Source: Squalus acanthias (lineage: Eukaryota). From it: a stretch of DNA of 64,000 bases. The position numbers were made by a program, and so were the translations under genes. Position 1 is the first letter of the stretch; every line of letters starts with the position of its first letter. Location of the stretch: NCBI GenBank assembly GCA_030390025.1, contig CM059449.1, positions 33,852,001 through 33,916,000 of the forward strand, read 5' to 3'. This document shows positions 1,542 to 31,989 of this stretch, one piece after another. Below the pieces are notes generated by a model that saw nothing but the letters and a program-made list of their open reading frames with translations, was not told where the DNA came from and did no database searches.

Positions 1542-2305
1542 GGCCCAAAAATTCGGCTGAATACGGGAGAGTACGAAATGTGTACTCTCGCGTATTCGGT
1601 CCCGAAGTGCAGGTTTCCTGTATGCACTGCGCATGCGCGGGAAACCGGCACTTCCGGTATGGCGATGGGGGCGGTTCCTAAGTGAACCGCGTGCGCACGA
1701 CAGGCTGTGCGCACGCAGCACACTTAGGTTTTTTTTCAGGTTTCAACGCGAAGGTAAGTATGGAATATTTTACACATGAAGAAAGGAGGCGTAAGTCCCC
1801 CTTTTAACAAGGTAAGTATTTAATTAAGTATTATTTTAAATTTTGTTCAACAAGTTTATCTTTTTTAGAGACTTTAAAGAAAGGTAAGTTTATTTTTATA
1901 ACATTTAAAAAGAATTTAAATTTTTTCAAAAATTTAAATTTTTGTTTAAAGTGGATAATTTATTTAACTATAGTTATTTTATTAATGTGATGGGTATTTA
2001 AAAAAATTATTTGAGGTTTAGCTGTTCTTTTGGGGGCAATTTGTATTCATAGTTTTGACAGTTCTCCTGTCAAATCTATGAATGTAAGATGGTGTGCTGC
2101 CATTGGCTCTAACTGGCCCACGTGATCCCAGAGGTCGCATCGAATTAACTGCGCCTCTGGGACACGCACACACTGCGCGCCGGCACCAGGGAGAGAGCCA
2201 GGAACTGAAGTTCGTGTGGGCCAAAACCATAAAGGTAGGCGCGGAGTGCGATATCGCGGGGGATCCTTACCCCCGCGGCAACCATCGAACTCCAATTTCT
2301 GGGCT
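1542..2305 (+). mobile_element. Harbinger-type MITE, ~760 bp structured family (copy 1)
   Basis: TIRs ggcccaaaaatt / aatttctgggct, GC-rich ends and an AT-rich core. Colinear with the copies at 8235, 18418, 26355 and 43832. Confidence 0.85.
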
Positions 2306-2810: not shown

Positions 2811-3320
2811 GGCCCAGAAATTATGCTCCCTGGCTTCCCGCGGGTGCAATGATCGCGCGCGCACCTAACTACCGCGCCTGCCGTTGACCTCTGGGCCGAC
2901 GGGGACTTCAGCTCCTGGGCGCCCTGCAGCTACTTTGAACAAAAATTAAAATTTTTGACAAAATTAAAAATAAACTTACCTTTCTTTAAAGTATCTAAAA
3001 AAGAAAAAACTGTTGAAAATGTTTTTAAATTGTAATTAATTAACACTTACCTTGTTAAAAACGGGTCTTGCGCCTCCTTTTTAAAATCGCAGCTTCTTCC
3101 ATACTTACCTTCCCGGAGAAACCTGAAAAAAAACCTAAGGTCACTGCGTGCGCGCAGCCTCTCCCGCGCACGCGGTTTACCTCTGAACCACTCCGTTCAT
3201 GAAAGCGGAAGTTCCGGTTTCCCGCGCATGCGCAGTGCATGCAGGAAACCGGCACTTCAGGTGGACTGACTGGTGAGTACACAGTGCGTACTCACCCGGC
3301 AAGTGCCTAATTTCTGGCCC
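2811..3320 (-). mobile_element. Harbinger-type MITE, internally deleted copy
   Basis: TIRs ggcccagaaatt / aatttctggccc. Carries the GAGTAC..GTACTC hairpin and three acttacct motifs. Confidence 0.8.
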
Positions 3321-3670
3321 ATATGAAATAACTTTGTCCAGTTGTGAATGAGAATAAAGACTCAAATGGACTGGACCTGTTTCTGGTTGGGGCGGATTTC
3401 ACTTCTTAAAAAAGGTAGTTACTTTAGGATATTCAAGGTCAGAGTGATCAACGGAACTAGTTTTGTTCGCCTAGATGAGTCGGGGAGTAATTTCTCAGAT
3501 TATTTTACCCAAATTAGCCTGTTTTTACCTGTTTTTTCGCCTGTACCATTAGATCATAAAGTCCCAGAAATTCGCTCTTCGGCTTGACGCGGCGGTAAGA
3601 ATCGCGCGCGATATTACCTACCGCGTCTGCCGTTCTGCTTTGCCCCCACAGGAACTTCGGATTTTTTGAA

Positions 3671-3791
3671 GCGCAGTCCCGGGCAGCGTCTGACGTCACA
3701 CCGCCCTGGAGCGCAGCGTGCGCGGAGCCTCCCGAGCGGAGGGCAGTGAAGACACGCCCTTCGAAGTAGCATTTGCATAGGCCACGCCCCC
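3671..3791 (+). promoter_or_regulatory. Putative inward promoter of the H1 Myb-like gene
   Basis: CRE tgacgtca (3671), octamer atttgcat (3771) and KLF/SP box ggccacgccccc. The CRE and GC box recur at the equivalent end of H2 (~31465-31570) and H4 (~39505-39605). Confidence 0.45.
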
Positions 3792-4058
3792 ATTTTTTTT
3801 TTCATGTTGGCAAGCTTTGGAAATAGCAAAACAGGATTTCCAGCATCTGTAGTATTTTGCTATCAAGAGTAATTTGTCTCTTTGTATTTAAATGCATGTT
3901 TTGCTAATTTTTACAAACTTTTAAAGACTTTTACATGAATTGGAAGAATTTTAAACAGTTTTAAAGAGATTTGAATTAATTTAAATAGTTTTAAAAGCCC
4001 TGAAAGCATTTTTTTCATTCAATTTATTTTATTTAATCAGCAAAGTGAAATCGCTGGA

Positions 4059-5529
4059 ATGAGCACAATTCACATTATCAAAAGAACTCACAATTTCAGT
4101 GACGATGATTTCAGCACACTCCTCAACGAGGTTGAGGCGAAGTGCCTGTGGATTATTGGAACTGAGAAGTCGAAGGCGCCGCGAAAAGGCCAGATGTTAG
4201 CCTGGTCTGAGGTTGCCCAGGCTGTCAGCGCAAATTCCACCATTCCACGGACAGCGGAACAATGCCGCAAGAAATTCAGTGATTTATTGCAAACTGTCAA
4301 GGTTTGTATAGTTATTACAAAAGTCAACTGTAAAATGTCTTTAAATTTAACTGAACTAGTTTAAAAAATATATATGTATGTGTTTGTTTACTCAAGTGAC
4401 TTCATTGCAGGCACAGGAGCTTGCCATAATTTTTTATGGCTTTTGGGGCCAGCTCAGGGTCATCCATTGTGCTCTTATCTTGATTCCACTGCTTTGAGTT
4501 GTTTAGTGAGTTAAACAAAACCACTGTCTGCAAAGCTGTGTCCCAATGCACTTTGGGTGTAATCTGCAGAAAAAGCTGACATTTCATGACATTTTATATT
4601 TTTTGTTTTCATTTTAGAGTAAAACTGCTCACAACGCCAGAGAACGTGCACTGACAGGCGGTGGTGTTGTCACGTTAAGGGCTTTATCCGAACATGAGGA
4701 AAGGGTCGAGCATCTGTTTGGATTTAGTAGCGGCTGCCCCTTTAATGGTGTACGAAGCAACACTGGTATGCATAACCGTGAGTTGCTCTGGCCAGCTATA
4801 TGTTTAAAAATGTTAGATGTGTGTTGAATATCAGCTTCTGTGATGTGGCACATTATGCTTTACCTTTGCAAATGTTTACTGTTTCCTTTCCACAAGTGTA
4901 CAGCAGACTTCTCACACACGGGATGAGCAGTGCGTTGAGTCTGCAGCCGCAGAGGGCATTGGGGAAGGCGTTGCTGAGGCAATGGGAGCAGTGAGTGAGG
5001 TGGTGGTGGTGGAGGAGCAGGAGCAACTTGTTGATGTAGTGGAAGAGGAGGGTATGGAATCTGGGTTGCTGGAGAGGTCCTCTCCATCTCCTGGCCCCTC
5101 TGGCTCTGTGCCAGACAGACACCAGCTTGATACTGCAGTGCATTGGGGAGAAGCAGATATACATGCAACAGAACAGAATGAGTTACAAGGTCAGATGCAG
5201 CATCTTGAAGGGTTGAGGGACTCGATGTGTTCTCTTACTGAGAAGAAAGTTGACTCTCTTGCCTCGATCAGGCAGGGAATTGATTCTATTGGCATGTCAC
5301 TTAATCAAATAAATGAGTCTGTCATTGGACTCTTGCAGAAACCAGATGTGGGAATGGCGCTTCATCAAATAAATGAGTCTCTCGTTGGACTCTTGCATAT
5401 GCTTAAACCACTTTCTGCTGCCATTACTTTGACTCCCGCAGAACCGCCCTTACCTGCTCCCAGCGCAGAAACAGTGCGGGCCCAAGAGCCAGCTGCTCCT
5501 GCAGTTGTGATGCAAGCAAACGTTGCCTT

Positions 5530-5561
<32 letters not shown>

Positions 5562-5668
5562 CCTGTCAGGAGGCAATTGCTGAAGGGCAAGAGATGGCAC
5601 ACAGGGCCCTTTCAAGTCGCAGCACAGGGCTCCGGTCACGGGGAGCGATAAAGCGCAGGAGACGGTAG
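4059..5668 (+). pseudogene. H1 Myb/SANT-like DNA-binding protein, ~387 aa; exons 4059-4301, 4618-4765, 4896-5668
   Basis: NFSDDD..W.EVAQAVS..RTAEQCRKKFSDL SANT/trihelix motif, TGGG motif in exon 2, acidic, coiled-coil and polyQ tail. The exon-3 acceptor reads AA where H2 has AG. Confidence 0.8.
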
Positions 5669-6176
5669 GGTGTCACCTTTTCCACAAAGCACATCCATTG
5701 ACCCTCAGGCACAGATGCGAGGGGGCAAATAGTTCAATTGTTTAATTTTTCGTTTTATTTAAATGTTAAATGATTTCATTGCTTTTTTATTGAAATATAT
5801 ATTTGTGACTGAAAGTGTATGTAACGTTTCATTTAAAAAGTATAGCCACTAGTCACTTTTCCTTTTGCAAAAAAAATTAACATTACAACTGTTTTAAATT
5901 TAGAAAATAGCTAGTTTCCATCTTGAATGTCTTTATTGCACTAAGAAAACAAAAATGTCACTGTAAACTGTTTACAAATTTTATTCTAAACTATTTATGT
6001 TTACGAATGTTTGAAAAGTAGAAAATAGCTAGTTAACATTTAAAAGTTATAAACTATGTACATCAACACTGAACCTCAGAAGTCTTTGATGCTGCAATAA
6101 AAGTTCACTGTTTCACTTTAAATTGTGTCTGTTCCTTTCTTTGCCTTGCTGGGGGAGGGGGAGGTACAAGGCGACC

Positions 6177-7324
6177 CTACCTGATGAAGGTGTTGGCTAC
6201 CAGCTGCTCCCGAGCAGCCTTACTTTCAGCTGCACTTGGCTCGTCCCTATCAGGCCTTCCCACAGGCACATTGGCATCGTCCACGTCCTCCATTTCAGCA
6301 GGTAGTTCCATGCAGCGTTAAGGGTCAGTCCTTCCCGCAGGGCAAAGTTATGCAAAGCACAACAGGCCACCACAATCTTTGCCACTTTCAGGGGAGAATA
6401 CTGCAAGGTCTTCCCTGACCTGTCCAGGCACCTGAAGCGTGATTTCCGAACTCCGATTGTCCTCTCCACCACGTGCCATGTGGGCACGTATGCCTAGTTG
6501 TATCTCTCCTGAGCCTCATTATTGGTCTTGCAGTAGGGAGTCAGCAGCCATGGTCTCAGCGGGTATCCCTTGTCGCCCAATATCCATGCGGATCCTGGAG
6601 GCAATGCGTTGAGGGCGCCATATAAGTTCGAGTTACGGAGGACGAAGGAGTCATGATTACTTCCCCGGTTACTTGCATTCACATTTAGGATCGTGGGGTG
6701 CGCATCGCAGACTATCATGACATTCAATGAATGAAACCCCTTCCTTTTGATGAATGTAACAGGTGCATCCACTGGTGCCTTCAATGCAACATGGGTTCCA
6801 TCGACGGCCCCAATCACTTTGGGGATTCTAGCAATGGTATAAAATGCAAGGCCCATCTCCTTTTGATGGCGAGTGGACAAGTCAAAGTTAATGAACTCTG
6901 AAGCCCTACGGAAAATGGCATCTGTGACCTGGTGAATGCAGGCCCTCGCAGCATTCTTGGAGATGTTGGTAATGTCACCGGTGCTTGCCTGAAATGACCC
7001 ACGTGCAAAGAAGTTCACTGCTGTGGTTACCTCCATGCTCACTGTCAAGGCAGTACGGGTCTTCGAGCGTGTTTGAAGGTCCTCCTTTAACATGTCATGT
7101 AGTCGGCCGATTGCCTCTTTACTGAAGCGCAGCCTCCTCACACAGAACTCCTCCAACAGCATCTCAAATGACAGCCTCTCCCTGTACACTCTCTGGGGTG
7201 GGTAGTATTTTCTCCTTCTCAGGAGGAGACGGTTTTGGTTCCTACGTCTGTCTTGTCGACTGGCGTCTAAAATTCTCTGATACAAAATCGCACAGAGGAC
7301 CAGGACAGCATTCTCAAAGGGCAT
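6177..7324 (-). pseudogene. H1 Harbinger DDE transposase (HARBI1-like), disabled
   Basis: Motifs [24 protein letters not shown] and VERTIG..K.RFRCL. Premature TAG at 6494-6496 and a frameshift near 6312. Confidence 0.92.
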
Positions 7325-8234
7325 GTTTCTCCCTCACAGGCTTCCTCTTTAAACACATTAAGTAGTTGTAAGGAAAAAATGGAAAGAGTTGTTAAAGTAA
7401 TTTTAATAAAGTGAGTGGCTAGAAAATCACGTCGGGCTATGGTGGGAAAGATGCGGTATCGGATTGGGAACACGTCTACCAGCCTGATGAATATCACGGC
7501 CCGAGATGAGTTTCCAAAACTGTGACATTTTCAGAAAGTCATACATACATACTTACTTAAAGGAATATAATTGATGATCATTTTCTTTTTTTTAAACTTT
7601 TGGAAATGTAAATAATTCATTTTTAAACAGTCATTTTCATATTTAAGAAAGAAAGCTAATTCAATAGGCCTTGTACACACCGAGAGTTGCTAGACTACTC
7701 CAAATGGTCAAAATCCGTTTTAATTTTTTTTTACAATTCCAAACTTTTTCAGACTTTATGAAATAAACTTTGCTGACTTTCAGAATTAAAAATGTTCACT
7801 TTAGTAGCCCCACTGCTGAAAGATTTCTTCTTCCTGCTCGTTACGGAGCTTTCCAAGATGGTTTACTCAAGCTTTTTACAAGCGTAGTTGCCGCGATCTT
7901 ACCCGCACTAAACCCATTCATAAAAATAGCGAAGTTCAATACGCACGCGCTGCCTCTCCGGCGCACGCGATTCACCTACGAACCCTTTCCTTCAGGCTAC
8001 CAGAAGTTCAGGTTTCCCGCGCATGCGCCGTGCATGCAGGAAACCGGCATTTCAGGATGCCTTACGGGTGAGTACACACCGCGTACTCACCCGAAAAGGG
8101 CCGAATTTCAGCCCCATTGTTTTGGCAGGGTGGAGAGTGCAAATATTGTGATACACTAGTATCACAATCGTGTGGGAAAGTCGAAATGGACCAGAACGTC
8201 TTCGCCTGTCCGTCATTGTTCGTTTGTTCATATT

Positions 8235-8996
8235 GGGCCAAAAATTCGGCCCTTGCCGGGTGAGTACGCACTGTATACTCACCCATAAGGCGTCCTGAAG
8301 TGCCGGTTTCCTGCATGCACTGCGCATGCGCGGAAAACCGGAACTTCCGCTCTGGTGAAGGGAGGTTCATAGGTGAACCGCGTGCACGGCAGAGGCTGCC
8401 CGCACGCAGCAAACTTAGTTTTTTTTTCAGGTTTCTACGGGAGGGTAAGTATTGAAGAACCTGCGCTTTTAAAAAGGAGGCGCAGGACCCGTTTTCAACA
8501 AGGTAAATAGTTAATTAATTACAATTGAAACATTTTTTCAACAGGTTTATCTTTTTTAGATACTTTAAAGAAAGGTAAGTTTATTTTTAGCACTGTTAAA
8601 AAGTATTTTAATTTTTTCAAAAATTTTAATTTTTGTTTAAAGTAGTTAATTTATTTAACTTGTAGTTATTTTATAAATGTGATGGTTTTTTAAAATGTAT
8701 TTTAAGTTTAGCTGTTCTTTTGGGGCCGATTTCAATTCATAGATTTGACAGGTCTTCCTGTCGAATCTATGAATGAAAGTTGGTCTGCTGCCATTGGCTC
8801 TCCATGGCCGACGTGATCCTAGAGGATGCATCGCACTAACTACGCCCCTGGGATACGCAAGCACTGTGCGCCGGCACTTGCAGCAGGCCCAGGAGCTGAC
8901 GTTCCCGTGGGCCCAGAGGTCAACGGCAGGCGCATTAGGTAAGTGCGCGCACAATCCTTACCCCCACGGCAAGCCGGAGAGGCGAATTTCAGGGCC
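8235..8996 (+). mobile_element. Harbinger-type MITE, structured family
   Basis: TIRs gggccaaaaattcg / cgaatttcagggcc, flanks att/atg, same hairpin series as copy 1. Confidence 0.85.
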
Positions 8997-12511: not shown

Positions 12512-15333
12512 ATGGGATGGCCAATCATTGTGCAGATAGAAGAAATTTTCTACCCGATTCTTGCAGCGATTGGTGTTCCTGGTAAGTCAATGTGATCAAT
12601 TGTTATTTGCCCTTACTGATGGTTAACAGTATCATTGCTCTTGCCTTCTAGCAGCATAGGGGTAGATCTTGACTTTGTGCGATGGTGTGAAGCAGGTGAC
12701 GGGGAATGAGCCGTCTGCTTCACATCTCTCCTGGTTTTTATTTCCATTTACTTCAATTGAACTGAAAATCGAGAAATGGAAAACCGATTGCTGATTCGCT
12801 ATCGCCCGTTTTCACCATCGCACTAAGTCATAATCTGCCCCAATATCTATTTATGTTCCGATGTGTTGACGCAGTCAGTAATTGCAGCAACCGTTACATT
12901 AAAGTCAATGGAAGGGGAATCGGACGAGGTGTATAATGGAAGGTGAATTGGAGATCCCTCGTTTTACACCATTGCTCAAAGTTCAGATTACACCCCGTCT
13001 GATTTTATTTTCCATTGGGTGGATTTTCGCTCTTAGTTACGAACGGAAAACAGACAATAGCGCATTGGCCACCCATTTTACAACTCGCTCGACTCTCGGT
13101 TACATTGAAGTCAGTGGACATGAAAGTCCACGGCTGTGTAAAACAGGCAACTGCTCGCTACAAACCGGTTTCTGCAGGGCAGTATAGGTGAAAAATCACC
13201 TCTAGTGAAGTCTATGGGAAGTACAATCAGGTGGGGTGTAAAACTGGCCGGGTCAATTTCCCAGTCGGCAAATTTAGTTAACATTTATCCAAAGTCTCAT
13301 CCACAAAATGAGGAGATGCTGCATCGTAATCTATGGCACTACCCCTGTACGGGACAGTCTCGGTCCAACAATAACAATCCTACACTGGGTGTCCATGAGG
13401 CTCTGTGGGTCACAGTAGCAGTGAAATTGTTTACCACAACAGTCTCTCACCTCATGGCCTGGCATAACCCTCACTGCTCCATTACTGTCCAGCCAGTAGA
13501 CCCACCCTGTTTTAATGTTGAGTGTTGAGAAATGTGCGTCAGGAACACTATCAACATTCGATGAGAGGCAAATTTGTTAACGTTGTTTTTGGGATGGGGG
13601 TGACGCTGTCAAGGTCATATTTATTACCCAGTACTAGTTTCCCCGCAAAGGGGCTATTGGGTAACATCTTGGTAGTGATTTCAATTAGGGTTATTTCAAC
13701 TTTGGGCATTAGTGAAAAAATGAGCAATGTCGAATTGACCGCTCATTAGGTGCTCGGCCGATTTCCCTTCCATTGACTCCAATGGATGGATAATTGGAAG
13801 TGGTGTATAAAGGGGGGCTAATTTGATATCGTCCATTTTACACTCTGGCCGAAATTTAAAATGAACCCCAATGTATTTGGCAATTCTAGCAGATGGATTA
13901 ATACACTTTGAATCCTCACGTTATTAGGGTTCAGAGCATTAACAATCTGAATATTTGTAATAAAGGTATTTGGTCTGGTCCACGCCAATGATGTAGTGTA
14001 AACACAGCTCGGCCCATTTTCCATTCCAGCGAATCAGTAAAAAGCAAGATGGGGAGACGTGTATAGCGGACCACGGATCGACATTCGCCTGTTTCACACT
14101 ATCGCCGCAGTCAACATTATTCTGAATGTGTGTTCTCTGAATTGGTGGTGACGACCTTTGTAACTAAGTGGATATAAACTGATGCATTCTGGATAAAATC
14201 ACTTCATGCTCCATCAGGTTATTGTTTCCTTGAAATAATTCCAGAATAAATTCGATAGTGTGTGACCATTCTGTAATCGTGTTGACAGGATTTGCGCGTT
14301 TACACGCTGTGGAGAAAGCAAGAATTGAGCGACAGGATTAGACAAATCGGTGTGATTTTACACACGCTGCTCATCCCTGTCTTAAGCCTACAATGAGTCA
14401 CATTCGATTATTTTTTTCTCTCTTGCAGCTAATTTATTGACGATTGTGATTCTCTCCCGGGGAAAGTGCGGTCTCTCCAAATGCATCACTCGCTATCTGA
14501 TTGCCATGGCAATCGCGGATCTCCTGGTCATGATATTTGATGTGATACTGTATGCGATCTACGATATTTATTTCCCATATTCATTCCTGAACTATACTTC
14601 CAGCTGCAGAATCAATCTCTCTCTGATTTATTGTGTCATTGACTGCTCAGTCTGGTTAACAGTGACTTTCACCTTTGATCGCTTTGTGGCCATTTGTTGC
14701 AGGAATTTGAGAACTAAATATTGTAGCGAAAGAACCGCAGCTACCGTTATAGTGACAGTTTGTGGACTGAGCTTTTTAGAAAATATTCCTATTTATTTTA
14801 TGTGTGAACCCCGGGAAATAATTGACAATACCTGGTGGTTCTGCACTGTTCAGTCTAGCTTCTATACCTCTCCCGTCTGGGTAGCCTATCTCTGGTTAGA
14901 CAGTATTTTAACCCCATTTGCTCCATTTGTTTTGATTTTACTCCTCAATGCTTTGACCATCAGACATATTTTAGCAGCTAATATAATCCGCAGGAGAATG
15001 CAAGGCAGCAATGGTGAGATTCACAATGATCCAGAGATGAGGAATCGAAGAAAGTCGATCATCTTACTGCTCGCTATATCTGGTAATTTTATACTGTTGT
15101 GGATGTTAACTCTTATTAATTACGTTTGTATACAAATTACGGACTCGCAGTTTTTTCAGACAGATTATACCGAGCCTTTCACCATCATGGAAAACACAGG
15201 GTATTTGCTGCAGCGGCTCAGTTCTTGCACCAACACCATTATTTATGCAGTGGCCCAGACCAAATTCAGAGAGGAGTTAATGAACACGGTTAAAAGTCCC
15301 TTCACTCTAATTATTAAGTTAATTAAACATTGA
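12512..15333 (+). CDS. Intact class A orphan GPCR, GPR139/GPR142-like, 324 aa; exons 12512-12581 and 14429-15333
   Basis: MGWPIIVQIEEIFYPILAAIGVP, then G|GTAAGT ... TTGCAG|CT in phase. Seven hydrophobic segments, ADL in TM2, FDRFVAIC, NTIIY, no stops. Confidence 0.9.
12659..12841. mobile_element. Old short palindromic MITE in the GPCR intron
   Basis: TIRs ggggtagat / atctgcccc, arms tgcgatggtg / caccatcgca, centre ttccatttacttcaattgaa. Confidence 0.65.
13688..13869. mobile_element. Old short palindromic MITE in the GPCR intron
   Basis: gggttatttc ... aaaatgaacccc with centre ttccattgactccaatgga. Relatives at ~12850-13000, 13016-13203 and 13960-14125. Confidence 0.55.
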
Positions 15334-16611
15334 TGTGAACAAGATTCTTTCACAGCTGACTAGAACCCACGTTGGTTCACAATGTTACCTTCACAAAACA
15401 GAGTAAATTGCACAACAGCGGGGAGATTTTCAATCAGTCCGGTTCGATACTGGGCGGGTGATCAGCTCCATCACTCATCATCCAGGGGTGAAAGTGTTAA
15501 TCTACCCCGAGGAGTCACATTGTAGCCTCAGATTGTTGCTCTTTTCAGAAGGAGCGATGGAAAATCTGCTCCTATTTTACATCGTGACAGCTTCTCCTTT
15601 TCACGGCCTGTATCACCTGCCATTCACTATCGCCCGTTTTGGTTTACCAATAAAGTCCAGTCTCATCCCCCAAGTTTGTGTTCGCAACATATTCCTCACC
15701 ACAGAACTTTATCAGCGGTGTCAATCTCTGCACAGTATCTCCTTCCGCTCATTCAACACGTCATAAGCTGTTGAGGAACAGGAATGACACAGGACGGGAT
15801 GTCACTTCATGTGTTGTCAAATGGAACTGGGTTGGGACGAAGGATTTTGCAGAGACGGCTCAATTTTAACCTACCTCGCCTGGTGGGTAGTGCACGGCAT
15901 CAGGTGGAACACCGGGTTTACAACCCGCTCGATATTACTCTCTGTTGACTGTAATGGATAATTTTTATAAATGATAGATGTAAACCAGCGTTGCGCCCGA
16001 TTCGATCAGTTTCCCGACGGGCGGGTCAGGTTAAAATTGTAGTTGAAGCCCAGACTCGGAGGTACGCTGCCAGTTTCACATCAGTGACTCACATCGACGC
16101 CAAAGGTCCGATGTAAATGCAGCTTTAGAAATGTCCTTACACCTAGACCCTTAAAAACAAATGCATTTTGCAGCATTCTAATTGTTCTTTTCTTTCAGGT
16201 GAAGCTTTATTCATTAAATTGTTATTTGTTAAACCCGCAGCGATAGTTTAATGGGTGTTCTGAGAAATCCTTCAATGTGATATTACAGTTTATTTCAAGA
16301 TTTGTTTCCACTTCAACTCGTCTGGGAGTAAAAGTAATTTTGACTCAGGCGGATGTGTAATCATCGTCTCAATGTTAAACTTACACAAGCCTTTAGCAGC
16401 AGTATGTGTCCTGCTCTCAACAACAGGACAGAAAAGCAAGAGCGATAATTGTCCCTTTTGACAATAATGTAAAGATGGTGATCTGGCACACCCCGTTATA
16501 CACATCGGCCGAGCTTCCTTCCATGATGTGGAGATGCCGGTGTTGGACTGGGGTGGACAAATGTGAGAAGTCGCACAACACCAGGTTAAAGTCCAACAGT
16601 TTTATTTGAAA

Positions 16612-16648
16612 TCCCAAGCTTTCGGAGCGCTGCTCCTTCCTCAGGTGA
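16612..16648 (-). ncRNA. Minimal hammerhead ribozyme, antisense twin
   Basis: On the - strand: tcac CUGAGGA a ggagc-agc-gctcc GAAA gc uu ggga, with one stem I mismatch. Confidence 0.65.
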
Positions 16649-16660
16649 AGTCTTCACACT

Positions 16661-16697
16661 TCACCTGACGAAGGAGCAGCGCTCCGAAAGCTTGTGA
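16661..16697 (+). ncRNA. Minimal type I hammerhead ribozyme (Penelope type)
   Basis: tcac CUGACGA a ggagc-agc-gctcc GAAA gc uu gtga: intact core, stem I, stem II and palindromic AAGCUU stem III. Confidence 0.75.
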
Positions 16698-17184
16698 TTT
16701 CAAATAAAACTGTTGGACTATAACCTGGTTTTGTGCGACTTCTCACATCGAGCTTCCTTCCGATTGACCTCCATGGAATGTAAATTCGGGAGGGTGAATG
16801 ATGAGCAGCCGATCCCACATCGCCTGTTTAATATCATTGCCAACAGTTAAACATTGCCCAAATGAATGGAAAAAATAAAACGAAAGACCGAGATGTTGGA
16901 CCCTGTGTCCTTTTTACAAGCGCACGGAGGGCCAATTTCAGAGAGCAAAGTCTTGCGTCCGATCAGCACCAGAGACAGCGGCGCTGCTATATTTGCACAG
17001 TCAGCTGCCCAGGCGCTCGGTGCGCCGGCCCAATGCAGTCATTAGGCCCGGTACATATGTAAATAAGGCCTGACGTCTGTTTCAGGACCCCTTCACTAAA
17101 TTGGACGCAATGTGAGGAGCAGGCTCTGGACTTTCGCTGCTGACGAATCTTCATTAGCTCTTGCGGCCTAAGCACATACCGTCA

Positions 17185-18417: not shown

Positions 18418-19153
18418 GGCCCAAAAATTAGTGAGGGAGCCTTCGTGCGAGGGTAAGGCTTCCCCGCGATCTCTCACTGCGCGTTGGCTTTTTCAGTCCG
18501 AGCTCGCACGAACTTGATGTTCTGGACAGCAGCTGTGCAGGGCTTCCGTATCCCACAGGCGCAGTTAATTCGTGCGAGCTGTGGGATCACGTGACTCAGT
18601 TAGAGCCAATGGCAGCACACCATCTTCATTCATAGCTTTCACATAAGTGCTGTGAAAGCTATGAATCTATACCCCCCAAAAGAACAGCTAAACCTCAATT
18701 AAATTAAAAAAACCATCACATTAATAAAATAAGTATAGTTAAATAAATTAACCATTTCAAACAAAAAATTAAATTTTTGAAAAAATTTAAAATCTTTTAA
18801 AAAGTTATAAAAATAAACTTACCTGTCTTTAAAGTCTCTAAAAAAGATATATCTGTTAAAAAAAAATCAAAATAATACTTAATTAACTACTTACCTTGTT
18901 AAAAGAGGGTCTTACGCCTCCTTTCTTTATGTCTAAAATGTTCCACGCTTACCTGCGCGTTCAAAGCACTAAGTGCACTGCGTGCGCGCAGCCTGTAGCG
19001 CGCACGCGTATCACCGAGGAACCGCCCCCTTTTGAATTCACCAAGTGCCGGTGTTCAGCGCATGCGCAGTGCATGCAGAATACCAGCAATTGAGACAGAA
19101 TACGCGAGAGTACACAGTGCGTACTCTCGCGTAGCGGCACTAATTTTTGAGCC
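18418..19153 (-). mobile_element. Harbinger-type MITE, structured family, AAT TSD
   Basis: aat|ggcccaaaaattagtg ... cactaatttttgagcc|aat. Confidence 0.9.
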
Positions 19154-20545: not shown

Positions 20546-20903
20546 ATGGGGGAGAAATTCAGTCACGCCCCATTTGGGGCGCAATTATCGGCCATGCGCA
20601 AAGATTAGCGCCTGGCGCTAATTATCGCCACTGACTGCAAACTTGACTTACCCCTGGAGGTGATTGGAGCGCTAAATCAGGCGCTAGACACCTGTCTTAA
20701 GGCGAAAAGGCCGAGGAGCAAGGCGCTAACTCAGAGCACGGGCGCAGCGCAGGTGCTGTCAGTTAGCGATGGAACACAGACACACTGGCGCCAGACAGTT
20801 CTTAAAGGGGAGGGTCGATCTTGCACTCCAGCCACACCCTGCTCATTGGAGTCTTGAATCTCGGCCTGGAGAGACCTGTGCCTAAATCTTCCAGCCAAGG
20901 ACT

Positions 20904-22810
20904 ATGGAGAGGGTGAGAGAACGAGCTCAGAGCTTCAGCGAGCGGGCCTTGGATGCTCTGGTTGGCGCGGTGGAGCGCAGAAGATCTATACTCTTGCCTG
21001 AGTGTGGCAGGAGGCCTTTGCCGCGCGAGTACAGAAGAGTGTGGAGGGAGGTGGCTCAGAGCGTCTCCTGCAGGAGCATGGTGCCGAGGACCGATGTACA
21101 ATGTCGAAAAAAGTTCAACGACCTCACTCGGGTCGTCAGGGTGAGTGGCTTTTTTTCAATACCTCTCCATCCCTCCATCTCAACCTCACTCTATGGCCAG
21201 AGGGTCTTAAAACCCCAATGTACAACACTCATCCAACACCTATGGTCCTCTCATGAAACACACACACACATTCCACACTTTGCATACAGTAAGGGCTATT
21301 CACCTATGGGAGGCACATCAGGCAAGACCATGGCGGCATACAGTAAGGGCTATTCACCTATGGGAGGCACATCAGACAAGAACATGGCTGCATACAGTAA
21401 GGGCTATTCAACTATGGGAGGCACATCAGGCAAGACCATGGCTGCATACAGTAAGGGCTATTCACCTATGGGAGGCACATCAGGCAAGACCATGGCTGTA
21501 TATTTACTCAGACGCCGTCCTTTTTCTTGCAGGCCAAGCTATCTCATAATAGGAGACAGCAGCAACGGATGGGTGGAGGGCGGCCTCAGCTGCAACCCCT
21601 CAGCGATCTTGAGGCGCGCGTCCAGAGGATTGTGGCAAGCCGGGTGATCGGTCCCGTCGCCACTGGAGACGCCGACCCCGTTCTGGACAGCAATGGTAAG
21701 GTCATCACCTTTTTGTCCTCTGTCCTTCCACTTGTCCCTCACAACACCAGCCTTTGACACTTTCAATCCAACTTACTAAATCGCTGCACTTATTCCTCCC
21801 TTACTGCCACCCTGTCCTCACGCTAAAGCCACTCTTGTACCTCCCTGCTTTCAGATGGTGATTCACCAGCTGAGGAGACGGGCCTTCAAGCTGCCAGTGG
21901 GAGTGAAGCTTCAGGCGAGGAGGAAGATGAAGGCGGAGCATCAGTGCCACCCTCTCCCGAGGAAGTCCATGCCCACACTGGGAACACGCCTTCCCTGGAG
22001 GGGAGCAGGGGGGAAGGTTCTGATGAGGGTGAAGCTCCAGGACCCAGCGGGCTGCAGCAACGCCATGGGGGTAGGGAAGAACGGGGGCCTTCTCCCCGGA
22101 GGGAGAGTATGCCAGCGACTCCTACTGCAATGGACGCAGAGGAGGAGCGGCTCATCACTGAAATGAACACCCAGGCGGTGGACATGCACACTGAGCTCAT
22201 GGGTGCATTGGGAAGGGTGCCCGAATGCATTGAATCACTGGCAAGGAGTGTGGAGCACTTCGCTGTAGCACAGGCGGATGCCACACTAAAGCTTAGTGCT
22301 GCAATTCAATCTCAGACTGCTCTCATGCAGACTCAGATTGAGGCCACGCGAGCACTGACTGCTGCCATCCTCGATGGTTCGTACACATTTCCCTGGGGCT
22401 CTCACCGCGCCGCAGCAGGCCAGCAATCTGTGCTCCAGCAGATTGCTCCGGATGCTGAAGTGCTGCCCCGTAGGAGTGCCAGTGTGTCGTTCGAGCAGAG
22501 AGTTGCTGTCCTCTCTCAAGATGACAGCATTCCTGCTGCCACCACTGTCACTTCTCCACTGCACTTGCCACCGCCTGTACGACAGACTGCTGCCGCCCAT
22601 GCAGAGTTGGTGCAGTCTGCAGCCGGGCCCTCCAGGCCCAGAACTGGTCGAGCCCGTCCTTCAAGGGCACCTGCAGTCTCAGATTCTGACAATCAGCAGC
22701 CTTCCACCAGCTTTGCTGCAGCCACTGAGGTCTCATTACGGAGGAGCAGTAGGGTAAGAAGGGGGGAAGTGCGCAAGGGAAGGAGATCACCCTCGAAGGG
22801 CAAAAAGTAG
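20904..22810 (+). CDS. H3 Myb/SANT-like protein, apparently intact, 451 aa; exons 20904-21140, 21533-21695, 21855-22810
   Basis: FSERALDALV..W.EVA..RT..QCRKKFNDL. GT-AG introns in phases 0 and 1 give an open 1356-nt frame. Confidence 0.8.
21282..21497 (+). repeat. 54-bp minisatellite x4 in intron 1 of the H3 Myb-like gene
   Basis: Unit gcatacagtaagggctattcacctatgggaggcacatcaggcaagaccatggct at 21282, 21336, 21390 and 21444. Confidence 0.95.
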
Positions 22811-23109
22811 GAGGTGTGACAAAATGTTGGTCTTTTTTTTATTAAAGGCTAAGTTTCGTGGTCAAACTTTTGGACATTATCTCCAGGTTATGAGAACCAG
22901 TTCTGTTAATGACTGTGTTTTTGTGTTTCTTTCTATTAGTTTGTCATGAGGAAATGACAAACACAGAGTTTGTGAAATAAATAAGTTTTTGTATTCAAAA
23001 TATACATGTTTGGTGTTTGGAATCATTAGTGCTTTGGCAGGCTTAGGGGTTGCGTGTTGGTTTCATTCATGTTGTTCTCAATGGCAGAAGCCATTTCCAC
23101 AGCAGGGGC

Positions 23110-23208
23110 CTAGAAGCGGCTTGCTATCAGCCGTTGACGGACGGCCCTTGCAGTTTCAACATTGTGGGCCGCCCTCACACCTTGGTGCTGCTGATGATCA
23201 TCTTCCTC

Positions 23209-23239
<31 letters not shown>

Positions 23240-24263
23240 GGTGGTGCTCCAAGGCCTGGTAGCATTGGCTGGGTCCTGAGGATTGCCATGTTATGCAGCA
23301 TGCAGCACACAACTACGAAGTTGGAAACTCGCTCAGGCGAGTACTGCAGGGCTCCTCCAGAATGGTCCAGACAGCGGAACCGTTGCTTGAGCACGCCGAT
23401 TGTGTGCTCAACGATGTTCCTGGTAGCTTGATGGCTCTCGTTGTACCGCAGCTCAGCAGGGGTGTTGGGCGTACGGAGCAGTGTCATCAGCCAGGTGCTC
23501 AGTGGATACCCCTTGTCCCCGAGAAGCCAACCAACTGGCTGATGCGGTGCCTCGAAAAGTTCTGCCACAGTAGTCTGGCGCAGGATGAAAGCATCGTGGC
23601 AACTGCCAGGATAGTGGGCATTGACAGCGAGTATCAGCTGTCTGTGGTCACAGACCAACTGAACATTCAAGGAATGGAACCCCTTTCTGTTCCGGAAATC
23701 CTCAGCATTCTCATGCGGAGCACGCAAAGCGTGCAGTCAATGGCGCCCTGCACCATGGGGAAGCCCGCTATCCTCGCAAAGCCCAGAGCGCGTTCATGCT
23801 GCTTGTCTGGGGTCATGGGGAAAGAGATGTACTCTCGTCTCCTTTTAAAGAGGGCATTTGTGACCTGACGGATGCAGCAATGCACCGCAAACTGGGAGAT
23901 ATTGGCGATGTCCCCAGCAGCAGATTGAAATGAGCCAGTAGCATAAAAGTTCAGAGCCACTGTGATCTTCACTGCCACCGACAGAGACGTCCTGGACCTC
24001 AGTTGAGGCTGCAGATCTGGCTGCAGCAGGTGGCAGAGCTCAGTGACCACCTCCTTGCTGAAGCGCAGCCTTCGCAAACACTGCTCCTCAGACATATGAA
24101 TGTAGGAGAGCTGTTCACAATATACCCTGGGAGGGTAAGCTCTCCTGTACAGACGCCTGTTGGCCCTCCTCCGTCTGGCCATCATTGCCACTCTCTCTCT
24201 GCGTCTCTGTGTCCTCCGATTCAGCTGGCACAGGACGACGCCCCTAATCAGTGCAGCCCCCAT
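23110..24263 (-). pseudogene. H3 Harbinger transposase, frameshifted
   Basis: GAIDCT, then a small deletion near 23730 removes HV and shifts the frame. [19 protein letters not shown] and VEHTIG..KQRFRCL are retained. Confidence 0.92.
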
Positions 24264-26354: not shown

Positions 26355-27102
26355 GGCCCGAAAATTAGACCTAATACGCGAGAGTACGCACTGTGTACTC
26401 TCGCGTTTTAGGTCTCCAATTGCCGGTTTTCAGCATGCACTGCGCATGCGCGGGAAACCGGCAATTCGTGAGCTCAAAAGGGGGCGGTTCCTAAGTGAAC
26501 CACGTGCGCGCTACAGGCTGCGCGCACGCAGTGCACTTAGTGCTTTGAACGCGCAGGTAAGCATGGAAGATTTTACACATAAAGAAAGGTGGCGTAAGAC
26601 CCTCTTTAAACAAGGTAAATAGTTAATTAAGTATTATTTTAATTTTTTTTCAACAAGTTTATCTTTTTTAGAGACTTTAAAGAAAGGTAAGTTTATTTTT
26701 ATAACTTTTAAAAAGATTTTACATTTTTTCAAAAATTTTAATTTTTGTTTAAAGTGGTTAATTTATTTAAATATAGTTATTTTATTATTGTGATTTTTTT
26801 AAATTTAATTGAGGTTTAGCTGTTCCTTTGGGGGTAAGTTGTATTCATAGCTTTGACAGTTGTCCTGTCAAAACAATGAATGAAAGATGGTGTGCTGCCA
26901 TTGGCTCTAACTGAATCACGTGATCCCACAGCACGCACGAACTAACTGCGTCTGTGGGTCACGCAAGCACTGCACAGCTGCATGTGGGACTGGCCTTGAA
27001 ACTAAAGTTCGTGTGAGCCCGGAGGGAAAAGGGAGGAGCGCACTGAGATTTCGCGGGGAAGCCTTACCCCCGCAGGAACGCTCCGTGTTTAATTTCTGGG
27101 CC
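26355..27102 (+). mobile_element. Harbinger-type MITE, structured family
   Basis: aat|ggcccgaaaatta ... taatttctgggcc. It truncates the env remnant and abuts H2. Confidence 0.88.
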
Positions 27103-27895
27103 AAATAATGTCCGGAAAATTAGACCTAATACGCGAGAGTACGCACTGTGTACTCTCGCGTATTGGGTCTCGAATTGCCGGTTTCCTGCATGCACTGCGC
27201 ATGCGCGGGAAACCGGCACTTCCTGTGGCTTCACCGAAAGGTGTGTCCGTGGTATCGGGTGCGCCGGAGAGTCTGCGCGTGCGTCAAGAACTTGGATTTT
27301 TTTTATCAATGGTGGAAGTGTGTGTCAGCTCCTAGCAATTACACATGTAAAAACCAGGGATAAACCATTTTCGATAGCTCCGGAGACAGCAGGAGGAAGA
27401 AATCTTTTAGCAGTGGGGCTACTTAAGTGAGCTTTTGTAAATCTGAAAGCCAGCAAAGTTTATTTAATTAAGTTTTAGGTAAGTTTGCAATTTTTTAAAA
27501 AGTTTAAAAACGGGTTTGGAGTAGTATAGCAACTGTGGGTGTGTACAAGGCATGTTGATTAAGGTTTCTATCATAAATGTGAAAATGACTGTTTAAAAAT
27601 GAACTATTTACATTTCAAAAAGTTTTAAAGAAGAAAATGATCATCAATGATATTCCTCTAAGTAAGTAAGTATGTATGTATGTATGTATGCATTAATTTA
27701 TGAAAATGTTACAGTTCTGGAAAATCATCTCGGGCCGTGAGGCGGGTAGACGTGTTCCCAATCCGATAGCGCACGTTTCCCACCATAGCCCGACCTGATT
27801 TTATAGCCACTCACTTTACTAAAGTTACTTTAACAACTATTTCCATTTTTTCATTAAAACTTTCTGTTTAAAGAGGAAGCCTGTGAGGGAGAAAG

Positions 27896-29044
27896 ATGCG
27901 CTTTCAGAATCAAGTCCTGTTCCTCTGTGGGATTTTGAATCAGAGAATTTTAGACGCCAGGCGACAAAACAGACGGAGGAACCAAGCCCGTCCCCTCCTG
28001 AGAAGGAGAAACTACTACCCACAAAAGAGAGTGTACAGGGAGAGGCTGTCATTTGAGATGCTGTCGGAGGAGTTGTGTGTGAGGAGGCTGCACTTCAGTA
28101 AAGAGTCAATCGGCCGAATCTGTGACATGTTAAAGGAGGACCTTCAAACACGCTCGAAGAGCCGCACTGCATTGTCAGTGAGCATGAAGGTAACCACAGC
28201 ACTGAACTTCTTTGGAAGTGGGACTTTTCAGGCAAGCACCGGTGACATTTCCAACATATCCAAGAATGCTGCGAGGGCCAGCATTCACCAGGTAAGAGAA
28301 GCCATTTTCCGTAGGGCTTCAAAGTTCATTAACTATGACTTGTCCGCTCGCCATCAAAAGGAGATGGCCCTTGCATTTCATAACATTGCTGGATTCCCCA
28401 AAGTGATTGGGGCCGTCGATGGAACCCATGTTGCATTGAAGGCACCAGGGGTTCCACCTGTGACATTTATCAACAGGAAGGGGTTTCATTCATTGAATGT
28501 CCAGATTGTCTGTGATGCGCATCTCAGGATCCTAAATGTGAATGCAAGTAACCGGGGAAGTAATCATGACTCCTTCGTCCTCCGTAACTCGAACTGATAT
28601 GGCGCCCTCAACGCATTGCCTCCAGGATCTGCATGGATATTGGGCGACAAGGGCTACCCGCTAAGACCATGGCTGATGACTCCCTACCGCAAGACCAATA
28701 ATGAGGCTCAGGAGAGATACAACCAGGCACACGTGTCCACACGGCAAGTGGTGGATTGGACAATAGGAGTTCTGAAATCACGCTTCCGGTGCCTGGACAG
28801 GTCAGGGGGGACCTTGCAGTATTCTCCTCTGAAAGTGGCAAAGATTGTGGTGGTCTGTTGTGCTTTGCGTAACTTTGCCCTGCGGGAAGGACTGACCCTT
28901 AACGCTGCAGAGGAACTACCTGCTGAAATGGAGGACGTGGACAATGCTAATGAGCCTGTGGGAAGGCCTGATGGGGAAGTCCCAACTGCTGCTCAAAGTA
29001 AGGCTGTTCGGGAGCAGCTGGTAGCCAACACCTTCACAAGGTAG
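27896..29044 (+). pseudogene. H2 Harbinger transposase (382 codons) with one nonsense codon
   Basis: A single frame throughout. TGA at 28595-28597 where H1 has TTA, and VVD in place of the conserved VVE. Confidence 0.92.
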
Positions 29045-29599
29045 TGTCGCCTTGTACCTCCCCCTCCCCTCCCCCTCCCCATCCCTCTCCCTCTCCCCCA
29101 GCAAGGCAAATAAAGGAACAGACACAATTTAAAGTGAAACAGTGCTCTTTTATTGCAGCATTATAGATTTCTGAGGTTCAGTGTTGATGTACATAGTTTA
29201 TAACTTTTCAATGTTAACTAGCTACTTTTCAACTTTGCAAACATTCGTAAACAGAAATAGGTTAGAATAAAATTTGTAAACAGTTTTCAGTGACTTTTTT
29301 GCTTCGTTACTGCAATAAAGACATTCAAGATGGAAAATAACTCTTTCCTAAATGTAAACAGTTTTAACGTTCAATTTTTTTTGCAAATAAACAATTTGAA
29401 TTTTTTTAAAGTGAATAGAGGCTGTACTTTTTCAATGAAAAGGTTACTTACACTTTCAGTGACAAATATATATTTCAATAAAAAAACAATGAAAACATGT
29501 AACTTTTAAATAAAACGAAAAATAAAACAATTGAAAGATTTACACGCTGGAAACTATGCCTGAGGGTCAATGGATGTGCATTGTGGAAAATGTGACACC

Positions 29600-31226
29600 C
29601 TACTGTCTCCTGCACTTTCCCGCTCCTCGTGACCGGTGCCCTGTGCTGCGACTTGAAACGGCCCTGTTTGCCGTCTCTTGCCCTTCAGCAATTGCCTCCT
29701 GACAGGGTTGCTGCTGCTGCTGCTGCTGCTGCAAGGCAATGTTTGCTTGCACCACCACAGGCGGAGCAGCTGGCTCTTGGACCTGCACTGTTTCTGTGCT
29801 GGGAGCAGGTAAGGTTGGTTCTGCGGGAGTCACAGTAATGGCAGCAGAAATTATTTGCAAGAGTCCAGCAAGAGACTCATTCATTTTATTAAGCTCCATT
29901 CCCAAATCTGGTTTCTGCAAGAGTCCAACAAGAGACTCATTTATTTTCTTAAGCTCCATTCCCACATTTTGTCCAACAAGAGACTCATTTATTTTCTTAA
30001 GCTCCATTCCCACATTTTGACCAATGATAGACTCTTTCAATTGATTAAATGACATGCACATACAATCCATTCCCTGCTTGACCGAGGCAAGACACTCAAC
30101 TTGTTTCTCTGTAAGAGAACACATCGATTGCCTCAACCCTTCAAGATGGTGGATGTGACCTTGTAACTCCTGTTCTGTTGCATGTATATCTGCATGTATA
30201 TCTGTTTCTCCCACATGCACTGCAGTATCAAGCTGCTGTCTGTCTGGCACAGAGCCAGAGGGGCTTGGAGATGGAGAGGACCTCTCCAGCAACCCAGATT
30301 CCAGACCCTCCAATTCCAGTTCAGCAACAATTTCCTGTTGCTGCTCCTCCACCACCACCACACTCGCATCTCCCACAGGCTCAACATGCCCTTCACCAAT
30401 GACCTCTTCGGCTGCAGACTCAACGCACTGCTCATCCCGTGACTGAGAAGTCTGCTGTAAACCTATGGAAAGGAAACAGTAAAGATTAGCAAAGGTAAAG
30501 CATGATGTGCCACATCACAGAAGCTGATATTCAGCACACATCACCTCTGTCGATTTGTTCAGTTTCAAAGGGGCAGCCGCGAAGATATCCAAATAGATGC
30601 TCGAGCCTTTCCTCATGTTCGGTTAAAGCCCTTAACGTGACAACACCACCGCCTGTCAGTGCACGTTCTCTGGCGTTGTGCGCAGTTTTAGTCTTAAATT
30701 AAAACATAAAATATGAAATGTCATGAAATGTAAGGATTTTTACACCAAAACTGCATTGGCACGCACTCAGTTAACTCAGTAAACAACTCAAAGCAGTGGA
30801 ATCAAGATAACATCAGCATTTTATGACCCTAGCCTGGCTACAAAAGCCATAAAAATTTATGGCAGCATCTTGTGACTTCAGTTAACTCAGCTTAGCAAAC
30901 AAACACTATTTAAAAGTATTTCATATTAAATGTTAAGACATTTTAACATTGACATTTGTTATAACTATACAAACCTTGAGCGTTCGCAATAAATCACTGA
31001 ATTTCTTGCGACATTGTTCTGCTGTACGTGGAATGGTCGAGTTTGTGGTCACACTTTGAGCAACCTCTTTCCACGCTACCATTTGGCCTTTTCGAGGCGG
31101 TTTGGACTTCTCAGTTCCAATGATCCTTAACCGCTTCGCGTTGACCTCGTCGAGGCGTGTGCGGAGATCATCGTCACTGAAATTTTGAGTTCTTTTGATA
31201 AATTGGATATTGCTGATAGCAGCCAT
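29600..31226 (-). CDS. H2 Myb/SANT-like protein, apparently intact, 420 aa; exons 31226-30975, 30692-30545, 30462-29600
   Basis: GT-AG introns, exon 2 is 148 nt as in H1, and the spliced frame is an open 1263 nt. Confidence 0.72.
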
Positions 31227-31989
31227 TTCCGTTTGCTGATTAAATAAAGTAAAATCAATGCAAAAAATGATTTCACGGCTTTTAAAACTATTTAAATTAC
31301 TTTAAATCTCTTTACAACTGTTTAAAATTATTCCAATTCATCTAAAAATCTTTAAAAGTTTTCAAAACATGCATTTAAATGCAACTTACTTTAACTGCCA
31401 CGTCTCCCGTTGTTAGAAATCTCCCTGCAACTGCTTTGAAACTCCATTGAAGTGAAAAAAAAATTGGGGGCGTGGCCTATGGTAATGGCGCCTTCCAGGG
31501 CGTGTCTTCACTGGACATCGCACGCGATGAAACGCGCACGCAGCGCTGCAGGGCGGTGTGACGTCAGACACTGCCATGCAGTGCAGCTCAGAAAATTCCA
31601 AGTTCGTGTGTAGGAAAAGGCAAACGGCAGACGCGGTATGTAATACCGCGCCGGTTCCTTACCCCCGCGGGAAGCATCGCACTCTAATTTCTGGGCCAAT
31701 TTTTTGACAGGCGTTGTCGGATCTGAACGAAAAATAAGATTTTTCAAGTAAATTAGACATATCTATTGCTTATCCTGATCTATTTCCAACACCGGTTTCC
31801 TTAACATATCTTTCAAGCCCTACACCCGTCAGTAACACATGTAGTTAACTATTGAAACAGCCATCTATTCCCAGCAAAGGATCAATTTTGTAAATGAGGC
31901 ACCGGGCGTATGATTCTTTCAATGACAAGTTCCTGCCTGACCTGCCATTTTGTTCCCAAATTGAGAATTCACAACTTTATTTCACAATT

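What the first reader, a model, noticed from the sequence alone, without database searches (positions are those of the whole stretch)
1542..2305. Harbinger MITE family built from serial hairpins with compensatory substitutions: candidate structured RNA
Seen: beyond its TIRs, copy 1 has at least six local hairpins (1559-1597, 1604-1654, 1671-1690, 1691-1714, 2045-2083, 2126-2162), and both arms change together between copies. Hairpin a is cgcgaGAGTAC..GTACTCtcgcg at 19103, 26377 and 27132, but cgggtGAGTAC..GTACTCacccg at 8066, 8257 and 44555. Hairpin b is aagtgccgg..ccggcactt versus aattgccgg..ccggcaatt (26418). Hairpin e is atagatttgac..gtcaaatctat (44057) versus atagctttcac..gtgaaagctat (18632). 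Hairpin f is cccaga..tctggg versus cccaca..tgtggg (18552, 26925). The inner pair of hairpin a is G-U on the strand carrying the splice donors and A-C on the other. Known: Harbinger MITEs need TIRs plus subterminal sites for the Myb-like protein; I know of no described structured RNA for them. Inference: pairing is under selection across the element, as an RNA or ssDNA fold or as an array of co-evolving palindromic protein sites.
Basis: partly seen in the sequence, partly recalled or inferred. Interest (0 to 1): 0.85.

Follow-up and report, generated by a model that had tools for sequence, protein, structure and literature searches.

The report
Symmetry-keeping hairpin arrays in Harbinger MITE
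A 760-base jumping DNA element with over 22,000 copies in this animal genome carries six internal palindromes whose two arms change together between subfamilies, likely because the arms are copied onto each other at the DNA level in actively jumping lineages rather than because the element works as a folded RNA.

Summary
The hairpins and most quoted paired changes are real. The element is a ~760-bp PIF/Harbinger MITE (12-bp TIRs, 3-bp ANT target duplications, at least 22,423 copies); two longer relatives in the window encode a DDE_Tnp_4 transposase and a Myb/SANT protein. Across 21 subfamily consensuses, 20 of 80 stem pairs show two or more Watson-Crick types (null 8.8 +/- 2.3). The RNA reading fails: the G-U strand bias is absent (new mismatches 9 G-T, 19 A-C, 33 other), both strands fold alike, 16 of 24 compensations are transversions, mismatched arms amplified (copy 1 itself has G-G), and the loop of hairpin a is inverted in a lineage of at least 666 copies. 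Inserted copies decay about neutrally; compensation arises in master lineages. The first 116 bp track coding-element subfamilies (94% versus 60% beyond), showing sequence exchange. Best reading: palindromic DNA sites under sequence constraint, re-symmetrised by template switching during gap repair (0.5); selection on DNA hairpins or cruciforms remains open (0.3). The scan noted similar DNA-level palindrome dynamics in other genomes' MITEs, not this family.

The parts
1542..2305 (+). Harbinger MITE, copy 1 (subfamily A / cluster 6)
   Evidence: 94% identical to 39 other top hits, 5196 candidates; left flank AAT, right TSD not kept and last base T for C in this copy
1542..1553 (+). left TIR GGCCCAAAAATT
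2294..2305 (-). right TIR
1559..1597 (.). inverted repeat a, core GAGTAC-N7-GTACTC; G-G mismatch in this copy; loop inverted in another lineage
   Evidence: (31,317 exact cores vs 264 control)
1601..1657 (.). inverted repeat b around GCGCATGCGC (1629-1638) and ending in ACTTCCGG (1650-1657); NRF1-like and ETS-like names are recalled
1677..1728 (.). inverted repeat c, two GCGYRCGCA-type sites; overlaps the small repeat 1671-1690
1768..1796 (.). inverted repeat d (weak in this copy, perfect in an older relative)
1753..1888 (+). three GGTAAG donor-like motifs (1753, 1811, 1883); a fourth on the minus strand at 2266-2271
   Evidence: in the long relative a donor at about the same position is spliced to the transposase exon in 1 contig of 1 of 4 runs; homology inferred
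1807..2030 (.). AT-rich middle, the slowest-changing part between subfamilies
   Evidence: 0.0040 changes per site-branch vs 0.0055 stems, 0.0099 other
2045..2083 (.). inverted repeat e (TTGACAG..CTGTCAA or TTCACAG..CTGTGAA; spacer 5 or 6)
2102..2124 (.). ATTGG and CACGTG motifs, invariant across subfamilies (CCAAT-box and E-box names recalled)
2125..2163 (.). inverted repeat f (CCCAGAG/CCCACAG/CCCAGGG with matching right arms)
2811..3320 (-). internally deleted MITE copy
3561..8115 (-). long relative with DDE_Tnp_4 and Myb_DNA-bind_5 ORFs; first 116 bp match MITE cluster 14
8235..8996 (+). MITE copy, subfamily C
18418..19153 (-). MITE copy, cluster 8
26355..27102 (+). MITE copy, subfamily B
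27110..31697 (+). long relative, AAT/AAT TSD, transposase on + (27890-29044, interrupted by a stop) and spliced Myb gene on -; first 116 bp match MITE clusters 10/11
43832..44605 (-). MITE copy, subfamily D
61863..62368 (-). partial older copy

Best explanation
This is a Harbinger MITE whose six internal inverted repeats covary between subfamilies, and the symmetry is likely kept at the DNA level: the palindrome cores are probably protein-binding sites needed for mobility, and the arms are likely re-matched by arm-to-arm template switching in lineages that keep transposing. Shown: family membership, covariation, its restriction to master lineages, strand symmetry, a loop inversion, exchange of the first 116 bp with coding elements. 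Inferred: that excision followed by gap-repair synthesis (SDSA) exposes single strands in which one arm templates the other, that a new mismatch persists through a round of amplification and is later either reverted or copied across, and that the invariant cores bind the element's Myb-like protein or host promoter factors.
For: On 147 internal branches mismatches were resolved to a new pair 21 times, reverted 19 times and changed to another mismatch 20 times; pairing-blind point mutation predicts a new-pair share of 0.2, observed 21 of 41, p=8e-6. An even revert/copy split is what unbiased arm copying gives. Loop of a occurs as its reverse complement with unchanged flanks (clusters 15, 18, 19), at least 666 exact copies; PMC8794818 (passages) treats loop inversion and multi-base arm matching as template-switch footprints. 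Clustered changes on internal branches match a nearby reverse complement in 6 of 144 cases vs 1 and 1 for reversed and complemented controls (p=0.02), e.g. a 3-base tract in the left arm of a. 49 of 50 long-element left ends scored match one MITE subfamily at median 94% over 1-116 and 60% over 117-216, including the inverted loop, so copies exchange sequence. Inserted copies decay about neutrally: stems vs rest 0.0121 vs about 0.0126 at non-CpG G/C, 3 double hits vs 3.46 expected. GCGYRCGCA-type sites occur 5-8 times in 7 MITE consensuses vs about 0.6 in shuffles. ORF1/Myb binds element ends in this superfamily (PMC2836001, passages); SDSA gap repair after excision (PMC3878927, passages).
Against: Only 6 of 144 internal clusters look like template switches; most restorations are single bases and fit selection equally. 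Instantaneous double changes are few (3). Only one of six loops shows an inversion. Pair-breaking changes are about 3.7 times rarer than changes in other GC-rich parts (56 per 10,334 pair-branches vs 0.0099 per site), which needs selection of some kind. Repeats e and f share no motif with a-c, the GCGYRCGCA pattern was chosen after seeing the data and is absent from the older cluster-1 copy, and no binding was tested. On terminal branches the reverse-complement test gave 2 vs 6 and 0. Non-CpG A/T stem sites mutate less than the rest in inserted copies (0.0068 vs about 0.0106, p=0.002). Trees of recombining copies misplace events.
Confidence: 0.5

Rival explanations
1. Selection on DNA secondary structure itself: hairpins in single-stranded intermediates or cruciforms in the duplex would raise excision, gap-repair copying or escape from methylation, so symmetry rather than sequence is selected.
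For: Pair-breaking changes are depleted and mismatches resolved in excess in master lineages; six unrelated stem sequences covary, with 14-21 bp arms longer than usual half-sites; spacer of e varies 5-6; strand symmetry and loop inversion are compatible; older relatives carry different hairpins where c stands.
Against: Subfamilies with mismatched arms amplified (GGGA/ACCC 10 and GGGA/TCGC 2 of 93 copies not picked by rank); outer arms of a are unpaired in several subfamilies; the two long coding relatives in the window keep only a, or a and b, at the score threshold; the unpaired AT-rich middle is more conserved than the stems.
Confidence: 0.3
2. Structured RNA: a transcript of the element folds into serial hairpins under selection.
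For: Folding z of -9.5 and -7.6 on the plus strand; family sequence is present in contigs of 4 of 4 probable RNA runs laid; the long relative's left end yields a spliced transposase leader in 1 contig.
Against: Minus strand folds as well (z -8.9, -7.7); new mismatches on internal branches 9 G-T, 19 A-C, 33 other (p=0.09, opposite direction); 16 of 24 compensations are transversions; inverted loop lineage; no Rfam family near threshold, 2 chance hits; no splice joints at the donor-like motifs of copy 1 among the 2 joints listed; a cut-and-paste element has no RNA intermediate (established knowledge).
Confidence: 0.08
3. Pure protein-site co-evolution: both halves of dimer sites follow a drifting Myb specificity by point mutation alone.
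For: The first 116 bp of MITE and coding-element subfamilies match; an unrelated Harbinger in the window has a short motif repeated in both orientations at both ends.
Against: The C-terminal helix region of the Myb domain is the same in the two long elements (TAEQCRKKFSDLL) while their ends differ; changes in different repeats are unrelated; identical derived haplotypes, including an inversion, are shared, which needs exchange, not parallel mutation.
Confidence: 0.12

Closest known systems
PIF/Harbinger superfamily MITEs (Tourist-like; mPing; zebrafish Harbinger3N_DR)
   Same: Short G-started TIRs, 3-bp TSD, non-coding high-copy element, partners with DDE_Tnp_4 transposase plus Myb/SANT ORF; ORF1 binds element ends (PMC2836001, passages). 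Palindromic subterminal Myb sites in Harbinger3_DR are recalled only; that paper was not held.
   Different: Six internal inverted repeats with 9-21 bp arms that covary between subfamilies; TSD preference ANT; a 116-bp terminal cassette shared subfamily by subfamily with coding elements. Not found in print in searches; Repbase and Dfam could not be searched, so the family may already be catalogued.
Template-switch mutation creating and maintaining hairpins (PMC8794818, passages; PMC5453318, listing and start of abstract)
   Same: Loop inversion, multi-base arm matching, single-base restoration of pairs.
   Different: Described for rRNA, miRNA and human genomic DNA; 'transposon' does not occur in the main text of PMC8794818. 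Here it is confined to transposing master lineages.
Sequence exchange among DNA transposon copies by gap repair (P element, Tc1, Ac/Ds)
   Same: Mosaic copies; SDSA repair of the excision site (PMC3878927, passages; the Tc1 exchange paper seen as a reference title only, not held).
   Different: Here exchange is between a MITE and coding relatives and has a sharp boundary at the end of repeat b.

Membership tests
PIF/Harbinger MITE | Short terminal inverted repeats | tested here: met
   12-bp TIRs in the 120 loci printed, a few with a clipped end
PIF/Harbinger MITE | 3-bp target-site duplication | tested here: met
   exact in 117 of 206, within one mismatch in 180 of 206; left flank ANT in 150
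PIF/Harbinger MITE | Related element encoding DDE_Tnp_4 transposase and Myb/SANT protein with shared ends | tested here: met
   two in the window, Pfam E down to 1e-21 and 4e-13; ends shared
PIF/Harbinger MITE | Small, non-coding, high copy | tested here: met
   about 745-775 bp, no internal ORF of 110 aa, 22,423 exact internal 25-mers
PIF/Harbinger MITE | Myb-like protein binds subterminal sites; mobilised in trans | not testable with these tools
   candidate GCGYRCGCA-type sites only
Structured non-coding RNA | Covariation above controls | tested here: met
Structured non-coding RNA | G-U over A-C bias marking one strand | tested here: not met
   9 vs 19 on internal branches, 201 vs 185 terminal, 27 vs 19 distinct states
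Structured non-coding RNA | Conserved loop orientation and avoidance of non-wobble intermediates | tested here: not met
   inverted loop in at least 666 copies; 55 of 101 distinct mismatch states are non-wobble
Structured non-coding RNA | Discrete stranded transcript | tested here: inconclusive
   only contigs of unstranded, guessed-RNA runs were available
Structured non-coding RNA | Match to an Rfam family | tested here: not met
   2 hits far below gathering score

The most novel reading that the evidence does not exclude
A vertebrate-type cut-and-paste transposon whose spread is selected on DNA shape: serial hairpins or cruciforms, free in sequence but fixed in symmetry, promote its own excision or gap-repair copying, and the terminal two-hairpin cassette is swapped as a module between MITEs and their coding helpers.
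Probability: 0.27. Interest if true: 0.75.

Novelty: new variant of a known kind. Interest (0 to 1): 0.45.

Why it matters
It is a clear case of strong compensatory covariation without an RNA-style signature, a caution for covariation screens of repeats. It also offers tens of thousands of dated copies in which to measure how transposing lineages mutate differently from inserted copies (61% vs 48% transversions, CpG kept at o/e about 1.1) and how MITE ends track their helpers. If DNA structure itself is selected, that would add a new cis requirement to Harbinger transposition.

Tried and rejected
G-U strand bias: tested three ways, absent. Host-level selection or ongoing homogenisation in inserted copies: not seen in the four tight clusters, 124 copies; 23 of 47 changes at fixed mismatches restored a pair, but many are shared with sister sub-lineages or are CpG transitions, so they were not counted as support. 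Loop inversions in b-f: none among the haplotypes listed. Right-end repeat g: no single register fits, dropped. Repeat 1671-1690 and the outer arms of a and c were left out of the 80 pairs. 12 singleton clusters were left out of the consensus tests. Rfam: nothing. Splicing at the MITE's donor-like motifs: none listed. Primary papers on Harbinger3_DR and Tc1 exchange were not held; a search for a recalled Myb-site motif returned only unrelated titles among 20 of 67 listed. No earlier finding by sequence.

Full report
Observation. Copy 1 spans 1542-2305 and has 8 local inverted repeats against a mean of 0.30 in 30 dinucleotide shuffles; 900 bases of flank have none. Three do not: the copy at 8257 has a broken right arm, the paired form of b at 26418 is private to that copy within its cluster of 33, and copy 1's own repeat a has a G-G mismatch. 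A further covarying repeat, d, lies at 1768-1796.

What the element is. The genome has 3.7 Gb. An internal 25-mer occurs exactly 22,423 times and the core of a, GAGTAC-N7-GTACTC, 31,317 times against 264 for the control. From 255 loci and the window I kept 206 non-redundant full-length copies: 113 came from BLAST-ranked searches, 93 did not. TIRs are 12 bp; a 3-bp TSD is exact in 117 of 206 and within one mismatch in 180, mostly ANT. Two 4.5-kb relatives in the window (3561-8115 minus, 27110-31697 plus) carry convergent DDE_Tnp_4 and Myb_DNA-bind_5 ORFs. This is a PIF/Harbinger MITE. On the second long element, probable RNA contigs show CT..AC joints in the Myb gene in 4 of 4 and 2 of 4 runs, and one GT..AG joint from a left-end donor to the transposase exon in 1 of 4 runs; the MITE's donor-like motif at 1883 is likely a relic of that leader (inferred).

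Is the covariation real? The copies fall into 33 clusters; 18 with two or more copies plus 3 old single copies gave 21 consensuses, 12 singletons were dropped. Of 80 chosen pairs in six repeats, 20 show two or more Watson-Crick types, and 24 of 38 doubly changed states are complementary; a column-swap null gives 8.8 +/- 2.3 and 33%, 0 of 2000 as high. The independent count on 22 real copies agrees: 95 cells changed on both sides vs 36 shuffled and 4-36 slid. The pairs were chosen from these same data, which favours the result. On a tree built from non-stem columns, 55 of 79 changes at mismatched pairs on internal branches restored a pair vs about 30% for slid partners. Leaving out the branches next to the root, 21 gave a new pair, 19 reverted, 20 stayed mismatched, 5 had no paired ancestor; p=8e-6 for new pairs. 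In inserted copies (four clusters, 124 copies) stems mutate like the rest at G/C and CpG sites, somewhat less at A/T sites (p=0.002), and double hits are 3 vs 3.46 expected. So symmetry is made in master lineages.

Is it RNA? No sign of it. The inner pair of a on the donor strand is G-T in 67 of 93 copies but also A-C, T-C, G-C, A-T, C-C. New mismatches on internal branches are 9 G-T, 19 A-C, 33 other. Both strands fold equally (z -9.5/-8.9 and -7.6/-7.7). 16 of 24 compensations are transversions, close to the 61% background of master lineages, and the G-G, A-A and C-C intermediates are seen in amplified subfamilies. The loop of a is reverse-complemented in clusters 15, 18 and 19 with flanks unchanged, at least 666 exact copies. 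Rfam gives nothing. Family sequence is in contigs of 4 of 4 runs laid, as expected for a repeat of this copy number; strand and ends cannot be read.

How it likely works. Three observations point to DNA copying. First, the loop inversion, which PMC8794818 (passages) lists as a template-switch footprint; one copy (L202) also shows a 4-base inversion inside a 3-bp repeat (read). Second, 6 of 144 clustered internal changes match a nearby reverse complement vs 1 and 1 in controls; terminal branches gave 2 vs 6 and 0 of 236. Third, 49 of 50 long-element left ends could be scored and each matches one MITE subfamily at median 94% over bases 1-116, against 78% between MITE subfamilies and 60% over 117-216; inverted-loop types are shared. 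Right ends of the two window elements match only 77-82%. Gap repair by SDSA after excision (PMC3878927, passages) would give transposing lineages repeated rounds of such synthesis; that link is inferred. Copying alone does not explain that pair-breaking changes are about 3.7 times rarer than changes in other GC-rich parts, nor the 19 pairs that never vary, so the cores are under constraint. GCGYRCGCA-type palindromes recur in a, b and c (pattern chosen after the fact); ORF1/Myb binds element ends in this superfamily (PMC2836001, passages); promoter-like motifs are invariant (names recalled). I put sequence-constrained sites plus arm copying at 0.5, selection on DNA hairpins or cruciforms at 0.3, pure site co-evolution at 0.12, RNA at 0.08. 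The first two are not separated by my data, since most restorations are single bases.

Novelty. The superfamily and the mutational mechanism are known. Searches listed no paper on covarying internal inverted repeats in a Harbinger MITE or on a terminal cassette swapped with helper subfamilies; subscription papers, Repbase and Dfam were out of reach and no supplements were read. The scan has no note on this sequence; an unchecked note on giant-virus MITEs reached a similar DNA-level reading, after my reading was recorded. Verdict: new variant of a known kind, interest 0.45.

Noticed in passing
window about 20550-24790: An unrelated Harbinger element (Myb ORF 20886-21647, transposase pieces 23110-24269) whose two ends repeat GGCGCTAA in both orientations, forming short inverted repeats at 20604-20622, 20724-20768 and about 24723-24753.
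   Followed up: partly
internal vs terminal branches of the MITE tree: Master lineages have 584 transversions to 373 transitions, inserted copies 1351 to 1445; C>G and G>C are about doubled and consensus CpG o/e stays near 1.1. Could reflect repair synthesis or purging of CpG decay.
   Followed up: partly
L222:4653-5387, L245:3768-4527, L253:2868-3612: Older relatives keep a, b, e, f and the AT-rich middle but have different inverted repeats where c stands (CTGTCAAG..CTTGACAG and a longer one).
   Followed up: partly
window 14386-15333, 35736-36284, 48144-48764, 61159-61854: Cluster of related seven-transmembrane receptor ORFs (7tm_1 for the first; the others by similarity); the region has near-identical duplicates elsewhere on C26 and on C1054.
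   Followed up: no
window 12656-12844, 16561-16748, 60316-60467: Self-complementary 150-190 bp elements (70-94% palindromic), a different repeat type.
   Followed up: no
window 36756-39615 and 39799-41221: A third decayed relative of the long coding element and another Harbinger transposase remnant.
   Followed up: no
window 26355-27102 and 27110-31697: A subfamily-B MITE sits 7 bases from the B-type long element, and 8235-8996 lies 120 bases from its C-type long partner; local hopping or end preference not tested.
   Followed up: no
window 1807-2030: The AT-rich middle is the most conserved part between subfamilies; its role is unexplained.
   Followed up: no
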